Shown in pieces: positions 8,534-11,746 of a DNA stretch of 11,980 nt. The notes under the pieces are model-generated. The model searched no databases. It worked only from the letters and a program-made list of their open reading frames with translations, and was not told the origin of the DNA. This DNA is from an uncultured bacterium (GTDB lineage: Bacteria > UBP14 > UBA6098 > B30-G16): positions 1 to 11,980 of the forward strand of contig CAYUDB010000072.1 of assembly GCA_964443405.1 (NCBI GenBank). The letters are read 5' to 3'. Each line of letters begins with the position of its first letter. Positions within the stretch are counted from its first letter, which is position 1. The translations under genes and the position numbers were made by a program.

Positions 8534-9679
8534 CTACGCACGTGGAATTATTACAGCTTCACTGCGAGGTGTTGCGTAAGTTCCATTAGTTGCCCAAACT
8601 TGCATGCGTAAATCCATTTCACTATCTGGTCGAACATACATATAATTTACTGTAATTGGATCACCAAATTCCTCATCATTTGCTAATACCAAATAAAACA
8701 TAGGAATCGGAAGTTCATCCCATCTCAACATCATTTCAGATGCATCATATCTCAAATTTTTTATAGACATATACGCTTCAAGTGTAACTCTTATCGAAGC
8801 TGTTGCATCACTTTCATCATTTCCTGAAATACTTCTTACACGAAAATCATGCGTTCCAAAATACGGATCTTTCATTATCCAATATGTATTTTTAGTCTCC
8901 GCGACAATTGTATAATTCTCTTCAGAAGATTTTTTCATTTCAATACGATATTCTTTCGCATTATCAGCAGCTATCCACTTAAAGCGAGCTGCTTTATTAT
9001 CATATATAAATCCTGTAGGTGGCAATAATTTATGTTGTATAGGTCTATTCCAAACTTCAAAACCATATTCAGAAAGATGTTGATCGTATTTTTTATATGG
9101 TAACTTTATATAAAGCCAATTTCTAATCTTTGCCAAAACTTCTATATATTCCTTCCGTTTAAAATCTCTTTTTTGAGTTGCAGTAGTCGATATTGCCTGA
9201 GTTTCATTTGAATTACGAACTGCATCGGAATAAATTGAAAGTTGTGTAATAATATCATTTTTAACTTGCGCATCGATTTGCTGAGGTGTTCCATCCCAAT
9301 CATTAAGATGGGGGATAGTTACACTTCTTACAAGCGTGATGAGTTCATTTGAAACTTTTGGCAAAAGAATATCAACACCAAGTCGATGGAACATAATGTT
9401 TGACAATTCTTTGTCGGCAACAACACGAATAAACTTTTTCATGTCGTAAATTGTTTCGATAAGCACATTTTGCTCTTCGGCAGCCTTTTTGACAAGTGCT
9501 TCTTTTGAGATACGCAAATCTAACACTTGCGCCTGAATTGTGCGAAACTCATGAAAAACTGTATTAAACTCGGCGAACAATGCAGCAGGAAGCACCCAAG
9601 CTTCGGCAGCATATTTGTTGTTTGCATCGGTTATCATGTAACCTTGCGTTATAAGGTCGTCAAATGATACTGTAGCCAT
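8534..9679 (-). CDS. Hypothetical cytoplasmic protein: alpha-helical N-terminal domain of about 215 aa plus two C-terminal fibronectin-type-III-like beta-sandwich repeats
   Basis: ATG at 9679-9677 is preceded by AAGGGGGA. No signal peptide is present. C-terminal segments such as PPTGFIYDNKAARFKWIAADNAKEYRIEMKK…YTIVAETKNTYWIMKDP…FRVRSISGNDESDATASIRVT and …LRWDELPIPMFYLVLANDEEFGDPITVNYMYVRPDSEMDL…VWATNGTYATPRSEAVIIP have an FN3-like pattern (W…Y…L…Y/F hydrophobic alternation). The N-terminal domain has no motif I can name. Confidence 0.6.
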   Translation of the reverse strand: MATVSFDDLITQGYMITDANNKYAAEAWVLPAALFAEFNTVFHEFRTIQAQVLDLRISKEALVKKAAEEQNVLIETIYDMKKFIRVVADKELSNIMFHRLGVDILLPKVSNELITLVRSVTIPHLNDWDGTPQQIDAQVKNDIITQLSIYSDAVRNSNETQAISTTATQKRDFKRKEYIEVLAKIRNWLYIKLPYKKYDQHLSEYGFEVWNRPIQHKLLPPTGFIYDNKAARFKWIAADNAKEYRIEMKKSSEENYTIVAETKNTYWIMKDPYFGTHDFRVRSISGNDESDATASIRVTLEAYMSIKNLRYDASEMMLRWDELPIPMFYLVLANDEEFGDPITVNYMYVRPDSEMDLRMQVWATNGTYATPRSEAVIIPRA

Positions 9680-9898
9680 TTTGTCCCCCTTGTTTGTTTG
9701 TTTTCACTAAAAATATACACATTTTTTTTGAGAAAAAAACTTTTTTTTTCATTTCATCAAACTTTTTTTCAAAATCTTTTGTAAATGAATTATATGCACA
9801 ATCAAAGTATTTTGTTAAGCTTTTGCAGATGTAATTTGTTTATAGAAATATAGTTAAGCATTTAGCAAAGTTTAGTATATCACTCAAAAAGAAAGTTT

Positions 9899-10345
9899 TT
9901 CATCAAGTAAAAATCTTATTTCATTAAGCAAAGTATCCATTTCATCAAATAAAAATTTCATTTTAATAGTTCCACAAACCATTTCATTAACCAAAAATTT
10001 TATTTCATTAACCAAACCTTTTATTTCAACAACTCAAAAAAACTTTTTCACAAGTAAAAATCTTTTTACATAATTTCCATTTATTATTTCATTAACAAAA
10101 CTTTCTTCAGAAGTATTTCCAAATTTCATTTTATTAAATCCAAATTTTTTGTCATCAAGTAAAAATTATTCAGCAACAGTTCCAAACTTTTCAGAATCAA
10201 GTAAAAATTCTTTATCAATAGATAAATTTTTCATTTTATTAGTTCCAAATTTCATTTCATTAAATCCAAAACTTTTTTCATCAACTAGAAATTTTATTTC
10301 AGTTCATCCAAATTATTTATTATTACTTCCAAAAAAGTTTTTCAT
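9899..10345. repeat. Degenerate tandem array of about 21 copies of a 21-bp unit (consensus approximately TTTCATYAASYAAAAATTTTAT), with a superimposed 63-bp higher-order period, in an 800-bp non-coding AT-rich spacer
   Basis: TTCA(T/C/G) cores begin at 9899, 9920, 9941, 9957, 9983, 10004, 10025, 10047, (10066), 10088, 10106, 10125, (10150), 10169, 10190, (10212), 10230, 10251, 10277, 10298 and 10341. Spacings cluster at 21 (or 16+26, 41-43). Each unit carries an A4-6T3-4 tract. The 63-bp super-repeat is clear between 10181-10240, 10241-10300 and 10301-10345. Confidence 0.8.
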
Positions 10346-10388
10346 AAAAAATTTGAGTAAATAATCAAATAAAAAATCATAAAAGAAA

Positions 10389-10419
10389 GGCTACCCAATT
10401 ACTTGAGTAGCTTTTTTTT
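10389..10419. terminator. Hairpin with flanking A/T runs; a bidirectional intrinsic terminator. It is strongest on the plus strand (T8) and also closes the minus-strand 420-aa gene.
   Basis: The stem is ggctac…gtagc(t), with internal caa/ttg pairing in the loop. The plus strand has the stem followed by TTTTTTTT at 10412-10419. The minus strand has the stem followed by CUUUCUUUUAUGAUUUUUU. It lies 65-95 nt downstream of the stop at 10484. Confidence 0.5.
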
Positions 10420-10483: not shown

Positions 10484-11746
10484 TCAGATAGTCATGCCGG
10501 CAAATTTGCAATTGACAAAATCTTTATCAACATTTACGTAACCAATGTGGTTCATTCCGGAAATTGAAAGTTTGATTGGCAAAACTTTTGTTTCATTTTC
10601 AAAATGTATTTCGACAGTTTTGTCACGCAAATTTTGAGTCGATGCGATAATTATTGCAGTTTTGCCTTCATGTTGAACTTTTGCCAAACAATTTCCATTG
10701 TCAATAACAAATTCATCGCACACAGCCAAAGCAAGTTTATTCTCTGTAACTTTTTGTGCATTAACCTTATGCTCTTTAAAAAGAACTCGCATTTGAGGTA
10801 TAATCGCATATTTATTCATCCAAACTTTAATCACATCATTTGGGTTTGTAGCACAAATAAATTTTTCATTAATGTCATCAAAAGTTGCTATAAAGAAAAA
10901 TTTTGCGCTATCATCTAGAAGAGTTTCGTCAGTTTCAAAATCTTCCATAAGCGCCCAAACTTCCGAAAAAGGTGTTTTTGAAAACTTTCGTGCATCATCT
11001 TTTGGAACAAAAATAGTAACGCCAGTGTTTCCAATGCCAGATTCACGTAAATTTATAAACGCAGAGGAGCTTTGTTTTTTTGAATCGGCTTTTTCATCAT
11101 CGATATTAACTGATGTAGAGATCTCAAAAAATGGATTTTCTACATCACAATTAACGTTAACATTTCCGACAAATGCTTTTTTCTTCACTTGGAACAGAAA
11201 ATTCTTTGAACTTTTCAATAAAGTAGTTTTATCATGTAAAATTTTGAACGGCAAAAACTTTTCGGAAAGCGCTGAAAATATTCCTTCCTTTCGTGAACGA
11301 AAATAAATGCCAGTTGCAGTTTTTACTGTAACTCCATAAAAAACTTTGGACATTAGCAAATTTTGTTTGTTTATTTTTGAGAAATTTGTAATATTACACC
11401 CACGAATAGGCGACATGCGCAAATTTGCAAATGCATTTGAACAATCAAACTCATCATATCCATCGCCATCAATGTCGCCTAAGAAAAATGAGTTTTTCGT
11501 TATGTGAAATTCTTTTGCAAACTGCGAAAGTATTTTTTCTGTTTGATCGTTTGTTAGAGCAATAATATCTCCAACTTCGGGCATAATTGAATTTTTATCG
11601 AACGTTCTTTCAATAATAAATTCTATACCGCGAAGTTTTGAGGAAATCTTTGCAGTATCGGCAGTAGTATTTTGAGCGCGACATTTAAGAGTGAAATTGT
11701 TGTCATTCGCTCCAAAAACATCGATAACTTTGGCTATAATTTGCAT
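10484..11746 (-). CDS. Hypothetical protein, 420 aa, no signal peptide, with a single DxDxDG calcium-binding-like loop (FLGDIDGDGYDEF)
   Basis: The ORF track starts at a TTG at 11758. The better start is the ATG at 11746-11744 (MQIIAKVIDVF…), preceded by GGAGG with a 5-nt spacer (revcomp of 11747-11760 is ATTTGGAGGTTGAA). I recognise no catalytic motif. Composition is low-GC, like its neighbours. Confidence 0.7.
   Translation of the reverse strand: MQIIAKVIDVFGANDNNFTLKCRAQNTTADTAKISSKLRGIEFIIERTFDKNSIMPEVGDIIALTNDQTEKILSQFAKEFHITKNSFFLGDIDGDGYDEFDCSNAFANLRMSPIRGCNITNFSKINKQNLLMSKVFYGVTVKTATGIYFRSRKEGIFSALSEKFLPFKILHDKTTLLKSSKNFLFQVKKKAFVGNVNVNCDVENPFFEISTSVNIDDEKADSKKQSSSAFINLRESGIGNTGVTIFVPKDDARKFSKTPFSEVWALMEDFETDETLLDDSAKFFFIATFDDINEKFICATNPNDVIKVWMNKYAIIPQMRVLFKEHKVNAQKVTENKLALAVCDEFVIDNGNCLAKVQHEGKTAIIIASTQNLRDKTVEIHFENETKVLPIKLSISGMNHIGYVNVDKDFVNCKFAGMTI

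What the first reader, a model, noticed from the sequence alone, without database searches (positions are those of the whole stretch)
9899..10345. Helically phased 21-bp tandem repeat array (about 21 units, 63-bp super-period) in a long non-coding spacer
TTTCAT cores recur with a dominant 21-bp spacing across about 450 bp. Each unit carries an A(4-6)T(3-4) tract. Twenty-one bp is two helical turns, so the AnTn tracts are in phase. That is the classic recipe for strong intrinsic DNA curvature. The array sits upstream of the FN3-protein gene, whose GGGGGA SD and start are at about 9690, and downstream of the 420-aa gene. It reads as about 20 iterated protein-binding sites. The alternatives I can see are: (a) a curved-DNA or nucleoid-protein regulatory platform controlling the ligase/FN3 cluster; (b) iteron-like binding sites of a replication or partition protein; (c) a plus-strand repeat-rich non-coding RNA (a protein 'sponge'), because the array is followed on the plus strand by the best terminator in the window (hairpin plus T8 at 10389-10419) although no plus-strand gene exists. 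Because the period is exactly 7 codons, the plus strand also stays open for 71 codons, but that ORF is an artefact of the repeat.
Basis: seen in the sequence. Interest (0 to 1): 0.7.

Follow-up and report, generated by a model that had tools for sequence, protein, structure and literature searches.

The report
Phased 21-bp site array beside orphan gene
The 21-base repeat is real, is not a gene, and belongs to a conserved two-part unit – an array of short DNA motifs spaced exactly two helical turns apart next to an uncharacterised helical/FN3 protein gene – found in about eleven distantly related lineages, and its function is still unknown.

Summary
Window 9884-10345 contains 22 head-to-tail 21-bp units with no phase slip (autocorrelation z about 7-8 at lags 21 to 126). 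The 63-bp super-period is not significant in the window. A simple wedge model does not predict curvature above shuffled controls.

The array is non-coding. Its heptad frame carries five stops. Substitutions against two orthologues show no third-position excess, yet the array diverges more slowly than four-fold sites.

Every homologue of the adjacent 381-aa protein that I could retrieve, about 11 lineages at 30-97% identity, has a 21-nt-period array touching the gene. The arrays have drifted in sequence, but a short purine-rich core and the exact 21 spacing persist. Twelve to fourteen units is typical.

Array position and orientation vary. Most arrays lie upstream in sense, two are upstream but inverted, and one is downstream. 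This argues against a leader peptide or an obligatory sense-strand RNA and favours a double-stranded DNA site array.

The hairpin at 10390-10411 is the minus-strand terminator of the upstream gene, not the end of a plus-strand RNA.

The protein has a novel helical domain plus two FN3 domains, is acidic, and matches no known family. The ligase gene is not part of the conserved unit. The binding factor and the function remain unknown.

The parts
9884..10345 (-). Array of 22 head-to-tail 21-bp units. Gene-strand consensus is roughly RATGAAAWRAAWTTTKKAMYT, with cores ATGAAA and TTTGGA/TTTTTAC. GC is 21%.
   Evidence: Autocorrelation z about 8 at every multiple of 21. Units stack in register. PWM hits occur at exact 21-nt steps. 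The array is collinear with L001 and in register with L002. It diverges more slowly than four-fold sites.
9680..9876 (-). Conserved promoter-proximal region between the array and the start codon. There are no indels against either orthologue.
   Evidence: 5 differences in 197 nt against L001. Identity to L002 is 0.81-0.95 per 21-nt bin in most bins, with no gaps.
9733..9753 (-). Isolated unit-like site (AATGAAAAAAAAAGTTTTTTT) about 55-75 nt upstream of the ATG and out of phase with the array by 4 bp.
   Evidence: It is the best PWM hit outside the array (16.3 bits). It is conserved in L001 and L002.
9789..9818 (-). Sigma-70-like promoter match TTAACA-18-TATAAT, lying downstream of the array.
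   Evidence: 11 of 12 matches. Both hexamers are conserved in L002. It is a consensus match only. Bacteroidota promoters differ from this consensus, so its function is not established.
9708..9715 (-). Bacteroidota-type -7 box candidate: TATTTTTA in the window and a perfect TATTTTTG in L002.
   Evidence: Pattern scan for TAnnTTTG and alignment. Its function is inferred.
8534..9679 (-). Gene for the 381-aa acidic protein with a novel all-helical N-domain (residues 1-205) and two FN3 domains. This is the only gene consistently linked to the array.
10390..10411 (-). Intrinsic terminator hairpin of the upstream 414-aa gene (tail CTTTCTTTTA reaching about 10380). It marks the upstream boundary of the array region and is not the end of a plus-strand RNA.
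   Evidence: It is the only terminator-like site found, and it is on the minus strand: 9 pairs, 4 of them G-C. The stem is conserved in L001.
10149..10364 (+). Plus-strand 71-codon ORF. It is an artefact of the repeat, not a gene.
   Evidence: Listed. The corresponding frames carry 6-13 stops in L002.

Best explanation
The array is a non-coding, double-stranded-DNA cis element. A short recognition core recurs once every 21 bp, which is two turns of B-DNA, so all cores lie on one face of the helix. It forms a heritable two-part unit with the adjacent gene for an acidic helical/FN3 protein.

The most likely mechanism is this. A sequence-specific protein binds the cores cooperatively and builds an extended nucleoprotein complex. 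That complex covers about 250 bp (12-14 sites) in most lineages and about 460 bp (22 sites) here. It sits beside the gene and controls its transcription. In the window it would lie about 65-530 bp upstream of the candidate promoter.

Shown:
- the periodicity and the strict spacing;
- the non-coding nature;
- slower-than-synonymous divergence;
- conservation of a core plus spacing while the spacers drift;
- linkage to this gene family in about 11 lineages;
- freedom of orientation and position.

Inferred:
- that a protein binds;
- that binding is cooperative and on one face;
- that the output is transcriptional control.

The binder is unidentified. The neighbouring protein is the only co-inherited candidate, but it is acidic and has no recognisable nucleic-acid-binding fold.
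For: (1) Period. Lag-21 z is about 8 with no phase slip over 22 units.

(2) Linkage. In each of 14 loci, the strongest lag-21 window of the whole locus abuts the homologue. Arrays are present in the window/L001/L002 group, L005/L007, L008, L010, L011, L012, L013, L014, L017, L018 and L019.

(3) Core plus spacing. L017 has 12 invariant TT[TC]CCC cores separated by 15 variable bases. Eleven spacings are exactly 21, and one core can be read at either of two adjacent positions, which gives a 20/21 spacing. TRF misses this array. L018 has 13 cores, L014 has 12 and L007 has 14, nearly all at exactly 21. L008, L010 and L011 keep AATAGAG at spacings of 21 or 42 with variable spacers.

(4) Selection.
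- Window against L001: array divergence is 20/469 = 0.043, against 26/280 = 0.093 at four-fold sites (Fisher p = 0.007).
- Window against L002: array divergence is about 0.30, against 0.41 pooled four-fold divergence (my arithmetic gives z about 3.1).
- The 546 nt upstream of the ATG align with L002 without a single indel.

(5) Not coding.
- The heptad frame has 5 in-frame stops in the window and 4 in L001.
- L007 and L011 have in-frame stops, and L012 and L013 have 20-nt units that break the frame.
- Substitutions by codon position are 8/5/7, against 6/5/23 and 15/10/35 in the flanking genes.
- Orthologue identity by codon position is 0.67/0.71/0.72.
- In L005 and L017 the third base before the core is invariant while the first and second bases, and therefore the amino acid, vary.

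(6) DNA rather than sense RNA.
- The array is inverted relative to the gene in L017 and L018 and lies downstream in L019.
- RNA folding shows no consistent structure (z -3.7, -6.7 and -0.3).
- There is no Rfam match.
- In the window lineage the best promoter candidates lie between the array and the gene.
Against: - No binding protein is identified.
- The only co-inherited protein is acidic (pI 4.1-6.1 across the family). Its confident model matches only FN3 domains.
- Nine of eleven lineages keep the purine-rich strand in the sense orientation. In L011 the array runs to within 12 nt of the start codon. Both facts would also fit a transcribed leader.
- Transcription start sites are unknown, and the sigma-70 consensus scan is of doubtful relevance to Bacteroidota.
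- L018 has a second 21-bp array that is not next to a homologue, so linkage is not absolute.
- The sample is about 11 lineages out of roughly 40-60 cluster representatives with the N-domain.
- Most contigs are short metagenomic fragments.
Confidence: 0.5

Rival explanations
1. The array acts as RNA. It is transcribed with the gene, as a 5' leader in most lineages and a 3' trailer in L019. Its purine-rich 21-nt repeats bind many copies of an RNA-binding protein or the ribosome (some cores are Shine-Dalgarno-like). This would tune translation or mRNA stability, or the RNA would serve as a scaffold or sponge.
For: - The purine-rich strand is the sense strand in 9 of 11 lineages. Sense-strand purine content is 0.49-0.64, with L002 the exception at 0.49.
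- Arrays end 12-50 nt from the start codon in L011, L012, L013 and L014, leaving little room for a promoter.
- Several cores resemble SD sequences: GGAGGA in L007, AGAGGGAGG in L008 and GGGAG in L018 and L019.
- The window sense strand folds better than shuffles (z -3.7), whereas the antisense strand does not (z -1.1).
Against: - In L017 and L018 the array is inverted, and in L018 only 52 bp separate it from the gene's ATG. A purine-strand transcript would need its promoter inside the gene.
- No secondary structure is shared across lineages (L005 z -0.3).
- There is no Rfam family match.
- In the window lineage a conserved promoter-like site lies downstream of the array.
- The window cores (ATGAAA, TTTGGA) are not SD-like.
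Confidence: 0.2
2. The array is, or recently was, a protein-coding heptad-repeat gene on the purine-rich strand. It could be a leader peptide, a repetitive partner protein or a RiPP-like precursor. On this view the gene is intact in some lineages and decayed in the window.
For: - One frame, the same homologous frame in every lineage, is open across the whole array in L002 (161 codons), L005 (286), L014, L018 (102) and L017 (84).
- Public gene callers called these ORFs.
- Gene-like neighbourhood variants occur: same strand upstream, divergent, and downstream.
- In the window that frame has the fewest sense-strand stops (5, against 15 and 34).
Against: - A 21-mer repeated with few changes is expected to keep a stop-free frame by chance, so open frames in homogeneous arrays carry little weight.
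- The frame is broken by stops in the window, L001, L007 and L011. In L012 and L013 it is broken by 20-nt units. In L008 the units themselves carry an in-frame TGA.
- Four of the stops are shared by the window and L001, although the array is under constraint.
- There is no third-position excess of change.
- The third codon base is invariant while the amino acid changes.
- The peptides are not conserved between lineages whose proteins are 80% identical (VENDPAL against VEDDHDY).
- There is no family match for the translations.
Confidence: 0.07
3. The units are iterons or a centromere-like site of a replication or partition module belonging to an integrated mobile element, with the neighbouring protein as the cognate initiator or adaptor.
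For: - Direct repeats at a two-turn period next to a co-inherited gene, sometimes on both sides of it (L005), resemble the Rep-iteron and centromere-operator layouts known from textbook cases (P1, F, R6K, parC, sopC). This resemblance rests on my own knowledge.
- Genomic contexts differ between lineages, and an IS110 transposase follows the gene in L008.
Against: - No Rep, ParA, ParM or TubZ gene is nearby.
- The protein is acidic and consists of a helical domain plus FN3 domains, with no winged-helix or RHH fold.
- No homologue is found in 72,556 plasmids or 50,697 phages.
- The flanking genes are ordinary chromosomal genes: purM, PFK, AdoHcyase and acyl-CoA dehydrogenase. PFK synteny is kept between L005 and L007.
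Confidence: 0.08
4. The array is a neutral minisatellite or an intrinsically curved A/T-tract spacer with no sequence-specific partner.
For: - The array has low GC (21%) and A/T runs in every unit.
- Higher-order repeats in relatives show unequal crossing-over.
Against: - An array persists next to the homologue at 30-97% protein identity, with a conserved core and exact spacing while the spacers drift.
- Divergence is below four-fold sites.
- Unit number is identical in the window and L001, and 546 nt align with L002 without indels.
- Predicted curvature is not above shuffles in the window. Across lineages it ranges from strongly curved (L005) to straighter than random (L014).
Confidence: 0.08

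Closest known systems
Iteron arrays of theta-replicating plasmids and phage-plasmids (R6K gamma ori, P1 incC/incA, F oriS/incC, pSC101)
   Same: Both are direct repeats of about 17-22 bp at a period of about two helical turns. Both lie directly beside, and sometimes on both sides of, one co-inherited gene. In both, the core is conserved and the spacer is looser.
   Different: - The present arrays have 12-44 units, against the usual 3-9.
- The neighbouring protein is not a winged-helix Rep.
- The context is chromosomal.
- No homologue occurs in the plasmid or phage collections.
- No DnaA boxes or unwinding element were identified.
Centromere/operator repeat arrays of partition systems (parC of R1, sopC of F with 12 x 43 bp, tubC)
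   Same: Both are long arrays of phased direct repeats next to the genes they serve. In known systems the array is bound cooperatively into a higher-order complex and can double as an operator. About 12 units is typical in both.
   Different: - No partition NTPase and no small RHH or HTH adaptor gene is present.
- The period and the sequence are different.
- The linked protein is acidic and consists of a helical domain plus FN3 domains.
Phased multi-site regulatory regions bound by oligomeric regulators (for example Lrp/AsnC-type wrapping at ilvIH and pap, or OmpR/PhoB box arrays)
   Same: Both have several sites on one helical face upstream of a promoter. Both depend on position but are more tolerant of orientation.
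   Different: Known cases have 2-6 sites rather than 12-44. No regulator gene is linked here. The cores (ATGAAA/TTTGGA, GGGRAA, AATAGAG) match no motif known to me.
Repeat-rich regulatory RNAs and leaders (CsrB/RsmZ GGA repeats, the TRAP-binding trp leader, CrcZ A-rich motifs)
   Same: Both have many copies of a short purine-rich motif at regular intervals. Some are located in a 5' leader.
   Different: - The orientation is not fixed relative to the gene (L017, L018).
- No shared structure is found.
- There is no Rfam match.
- The exact 21-nt period equals two DNA turns.
Intrinsically curved A-tract DNA upstream of promoters
   Same: Both are AT-rich, with A and T runs recurring with the helical repeat in the window.
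   Different: Curvature is not predicted above shuffles in the window. GC-richer relatives lack A-tracts yet keep the period and the core.

Membership tests
Iteron-type replication origin | Tandem direct repeats of 17-22 bp at a period of about two helical turns | tested here: met
   22 units at exactly 21 bp.
Iteron-type replication origin | Adjacent gene encodes a Rep initiator (winged-helix, Rep_3-like) | tested here: not met
   No Pfam, NCBIfam or PDB match. The model is a helical bundle plus two FN3 domains. The protein is acidic.
Iteron-type replication origin | Located on a plasmid, phage or other autonomous replicon | tested here: not met
   The flanking genes are chromosomal. tblastn finds no homologue in the plasmid or phage collections.
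Iteron-type replication origin | Origin activity (autonomous replication, unwinding element, DnaA boxes) | not testable with these tools
   This needs a replication assay or marker-frequency data.
Partition centromere (parC/sopC/tubC type) | Array of direct repeats next to the par genes | tested here: inconclusive
   An array is present, but no par genes are available to define adjacency.
Partition centromere (parC/sopC/tubC type) | Linked NTPase (ParA/ParM/TubZ) and centromere-binding adaptor | tested here: not met
   Neither is found among the neighbours in any locus.
Protein-coding heptad-repeat gene | Uninterrupted reading frame with a start codon, conserved across relatives | tested here: not met
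   Five stops in the window and four in L001. L007 and L011 have stops, and L012 and L013 have frame-breaking 20-nt units.
Protein-coding heptad-repeat gene | Substitutions concentrated at third codon positions, with amino acids more conserved than nucleotides | tested here: not met
   Substitutions by position are 8/5/7 against L001. Identity by position is 0.67/0.71/0.72 against L002. The third base is invariant where the amino acid varies.
Intrinsically curved A-tract DNA | A/T tracts in phase with the helical repeat | tested here: inconclusive
   Window units carry A4-6 and T3-5 runs. GC-richer homologous arrays mostly do not.
Intrinsically curved A-tract DNA | Predicted curvature clearly above composition-matched controls | tested here: not met
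   0.740 against 0.754 +/- 0.125 in the window, and inconsistent across lineages. The wedge parameters were recalled from memory.
Known structured or repeat RNA family (Rfam) | Match to a curated covariance model | tested here: not met
   Only a tRNA in L011 reached the gathering score across 10 sources.
Known structured or repeat RNA family (Rfam) | Fixed strand relative to its promoter or gene, and a conserved fold | tested here: not met
   The array is inverted in L017 and L018. Folding z-scores range from -0.3 to -6.7.
CRISPR array | Identical repeats of 23 nt or more, separated by unique spacers of similar length, usually with cas genes | tested here: not met
   The period is 21 nt in total, the conserved core is only 6-11 nt, and no cas genes are present.
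Phased cis-regulatory binding-site array (generic) | Short conserved core at a fixed helical phase with variable spacers, under purifying selection | tested here: met
Phased cis-regulatory binding-site array (generic) | Demonstrated binding protein and an effect on transcription | not testable with these tools
   This needs EMSA, DAP-seq or ChIP, and reporter assays.

The most novel reading that the evidence does not exclude
The array and the acidic helical/FN3 protein form a new kind of two-component chromosomal module. It is present in Bacteroidota-type contigs and on at least one archaeal-looking contig. In this reading, a platform of about 12 units (22 units here) at a 21-bp period nucleates a defined higher-order nucleoprotein assembly involving the neighbouring protein, either directly or through an unknown adaptor. 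Its purpose would go beyond ordinary promoter control, for example anchoring or organising a DNA segment. It would be unrelated to known Rep-iteron or Par-centromere systems.
Probability: 0.2. Interest if true: 0.8.

Novelty: new variant of a known kind. Interest (0 to 1): 0.62.

Why it matters
If the array is a protein-binding platform, it is an unusually long and strictly phased one. It has 12-44 sites and exact two-turn spacing, maintained while the spacer sequence turns over. It is tied to a protein family with no annotation at all.

It would define a new cis-element/gene pairing. It would give that orphan family its first functional handle. It would also offer a natural system for studying how helical phase and site number are kept under selection.

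There is a practical consequence as well. Public gene callers repeatedly annotate these arrays as hypothetical proteins of 75-286 aa. Recognising the element removes those false genes, and it explains why contigs break at these loci.

Tried and rejected
- Exact look-ups of the window's own proteins in public assemblies found nothing.
- The two genome-contig scans found no relative. One viral-contig scan found none. The first alignment was too diverse to search with.
- A RiPP-precursor idea (heptad peptide plus GCS2-like ligase) was dropped. The ligase is absent from distant loci, and the frame is broken and shows no coding signature.
- A recoded-phage reading (TGA or TAA reassignment) was dropped. 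The window is a Bacteroidota-type chromosome and two of the stops are TAA.
- A defence-system reading failed, with no PADLOC match.
- I tested whether the 189-bp repeat of L002 is a nine-unit higher-order repeat of the 21-mer. It shows no internal lag-21 signal.
- Literature searches for 21-bp repeats in prokaryotes returned only eukaryotic, viral or unrelated papers, and one query was malformed. My statement that the element is undescribed therefore rests on a limited search.
- Promoter assignment is unresolved. The sigma-70 and Bacteroidota -7 pattern matches are only consensus hits.

Full report
**1. The observation**

The window is a Bacteroidota-type chromosomal segment. It carries two proteins with T9SS sorting domains, a C10 peptidase, purM and an SPFH protein. 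All genes lie on the minus strand.

The 804-bp spacer between the 414-aa gene (10484-11728) and the 381-aa gene (8534-9679) has 22% GC, against 38% for the whole window.

Within the spacer, self-matching of 9880-10360 jumps from about 0.34 to 0.54-0.56 at lags 21, 42, 63, 84, 105 and 126. That is z = 7.1-8.4 against Markov simulations, and no other lag is raised. TRF reports periods of 21 and 42.

Stacked in register, the array is 22 units (10345 down to 9884) without a single indel.

- The 63-bp super-period cannot be distinguished in the window (0.555 against 0.541 and 0.538).
- A wedge-model path is no more curved than dinucleotide shuffles (0.740 against 0.754 +/- 0.125). The wedge parameters were recalled from memory, so this test is rough.

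**2. Strand and boundaries**

On the gene (minus) strand, TTTCAT reads ATGAAA, and the units read as heptads (FLLDEKx / FGxNxMK) with five in-frame stops.

There it is followed by CTTTCTTTTA, 73 nt after the stop codon of the 414-aa gene. It is that gene's terminator.

A sigma-70-like TTAACA-18-TATAAT (9818-9789) and a Bacteroidota-type -7 box candidate lie between the array and the ATG. The -7 box is perfect in the orthologue. Both sites are conserved, but they are consensus matches only.

**3. Orthologues**

The 381-aa protein is rare. One search gave eight hits, and none carries a name.

*L001 (97% identity).* The spacer is collinear with the window's, with the same 22 units and no indel. 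Divergence by segment is:

| Segment | Differences | Divergence |
|---|---|---|
| Array | 20/469 | 0.043 |
| Array to ATG | 5/197 | 0.025 |
| Terminator-side segment | 18/138 | 0.130 |
| Four-fold sites of the two flanking genes | 26/280 | 0.093 |

The array is significantly slower than the four-fold sites (Fisher p = 0.007). The 20 changes fall 8/5/7 on the three codon positions of the heptad frame. The flanking genes give 6/5/23 and 15/10/35.

*L002 (87% identity).* The 546 nt upstream of the ATG align ungapped. Array units are 70% identical, while four-fold sites differ by 30-51%. Identity by codon position is 0.67/0.71/0.72, so the third position is not the most variable. The heptad frame happens to be open there for 161 codons, and a gene caller annotated it. 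The window's open plus-strand frame is closed there.

The array is therefore constrained, but not as a coding sequence.

**4. Distant homologues**

Using protein hits, a metagenome scan and three representatives from an exhaustive HMM search, I obtained loci for about 11 lineages at 30-97% identity.

In each of 14 loci, the strongest lag-21 window of the whole locus touches the homologue. The unit sequences have drifted:
- ATGAAA/TTTGGA in the window;
- GTGGAAAAC in L005;
- GTGGAGGA in L007;
- GGGGAAGAAGAA in L012, L013 and L014;
- AATAGAG in L008, L010 and L011;
- TTGGGAGAAATGAAAA in L018;
- TTGGGAGTGAAGTGCA in L019.

All share a purine-rich run preceded by YTY, and the spacing is held:
- 11 of 11 spacings are exactly 21 in L014, and 12 of 12 in L018.
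- In L017, twelve invariant TT[TC]CCC cores are separated by 15 freely varying bases. Eleven spacings are exactly 21, and one core is readable at either of two adjacent positions (20/21). TRF does not detect this array.

Twelve to fourteen units is typical (L007, L011, L014, L017, L018, L019). The window lineage has about 22 units. L005 has about 44, organised in a 210-bp higher-order repeat.

The GCS2-like ligase and the 414-aa gene are found only in the close relatives. The conserved unit is therefore the array plus the helical/FN3 gene.

**5. DNA, RNA or peptide?**

*Peptide.* This reading is rejected on several grounds:
- The frame is broken by stops in the window, L001, L007 and L011. In L012 and L013 it is broken by 20-nt units. 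In L008 the units carry an in-frame TGA.
- In L005 and L017 the base before the core is invariant at a third codon position while the encoded residue changes: V/R/E/M/G in L005 and M/L/P in L017.
- The peptides differ between lineages whose proteins are 80% identical.
- Open frames in homogeneous arrays are expected by chance, because most 21-mers have a stop-free frame.

*RNA.* Points in favour:
- The purine strand is the sense strand in nine of eleven lineages.
- Some arrays reach almost to the ribosome-binding site.

Points against:
- In L017 and L018 the array is inverted, and in L018 only 52 bp separate it from the ATG.
- In L019 the array lies downstream of the gene.
- Folding z-scores are inconsistent.
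- Rfam finds nothing.

*DNA.* A double-stranded DNA element explains all the arrangements. It also explains why the period is exactly two helical turns.

**6. The neighbouring protein**

With a 37-sequence alignment, AlphaFold gives a confident model (pLDDT 92.7). It shows a helical N-domain with two 56-residue helices, followed by two FN3 domains.

It is the only co-inherited candidate for a partner of the array, but nothing marks it as a nucleic-acid binder. The binder therefore remains unknown.

**7. Verdict**

The curvature, ligase-cluster, iteron/partition and plus-strand-RNA details are not supported.

I estimate these likelihoods:

| Reading | Likelihood |
|---|---|
| Phased DNA site array controlling, or acting with, the adjacent gene | about 0.5 |
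| Transcribed repeat RNA | about 0.2 |
| Replication or partition element | about 0.08 |
| Decayed or translated heptad gene | about 0.07 |
| Functionless minisatellite or curved spacer | about 0.08 |

I found no description of this element in the searchable literature, but that search was limited.

Noticed in passing
L002:2826-4497: There are 8.8 tandem copies of a 189-bp unit (89% matches) between the 420-aa gene and the 21-bp array. Each copy carries the hairpin plus T-run that is single-copy in the window (10390-10411). The unit has no internal 21-bp signal, and its meaning is unknown.
   Followed up: partly
L005:4715-6888: A 2.2-kb mosaic lies downstream of the homologue. It is built from a 42-bp module with the hairpin GTGGCTACGCCAC and a 105-bp module, giving higher-order periods of 168-357 bp, all multiples of 21. 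A related hairpin occurs upstream in L005 and, inverted, at the start of L007.
   Followed up: partly
L018:5078-5574: A second 21-bp-period array (CCGTTGAGGTTGGAAAGCGCG, with 62-84-bp higher-order spacing) lies about 2 kb from the homologue and is not adjacent to any family member. Such arrays may therefore occur independently of the gene.
   Followed up: no
L019:4001-6131: The homologue is annotated as a 633-aa protein because an unrelated upstream ORF runs into it in frame. The likely real start is about 4962, after AGGAGGAGG. The downstream array begins in the last codons and stays in frame beyond the TAA stop (VKCxxxG heptads).
   Followed up: partly
L001:1395-1658; L002:4466-4951; L005:2666-3526; L007:279-506; L017:3584-3838; L018:1877-2185: Public gene callers annotate ORFs of 75-286 aa running through these arrays, on whichever strand is purine-rich. 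These are probably false genes.
   Followed up: yes
L017 (NCBI GCA_015657915.1, contig NPIE01003670.1): A homologue lies next to archaeal-type GatD and GatE genes. Its N-domain is 62-64% identical to those of homologues in bacterial-type contexts (L018, L008). This suggests recent transfer between domains or a mis-binned contig.
   Followed up: no
window:9684-9689 and the equivalent sites in L005, L007, L008, L010, L013, L014 and L019: Strong Shine-Dalgarno-like sequences (GGGGGA, GGAGGTG, AGGAGG) precede the start codon of this gene family. This is so even in contigs with Bacteroidota markers, a phylum in which SD use is generally rare (my own knowledge).
   Followed up: no
window:10433-10470: A good promoter-like site (TTTACA-18-TATAAT overlapping a TAnnTTTG box) sits between the stop codon of the 414-aa gene and its terminator hairpin. 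A transcript starting there would begin with the hairpin.
   Followed up: no
window:7157-8365 and 10484-11728: The 402-aa protein matches GCS2/YbdK carboxylate-amine ligases over only about 45 residues, far below the family cut-offs. The 414-aa protein has no family match. Both are restricted to the close relatives.
   Followed up: partly
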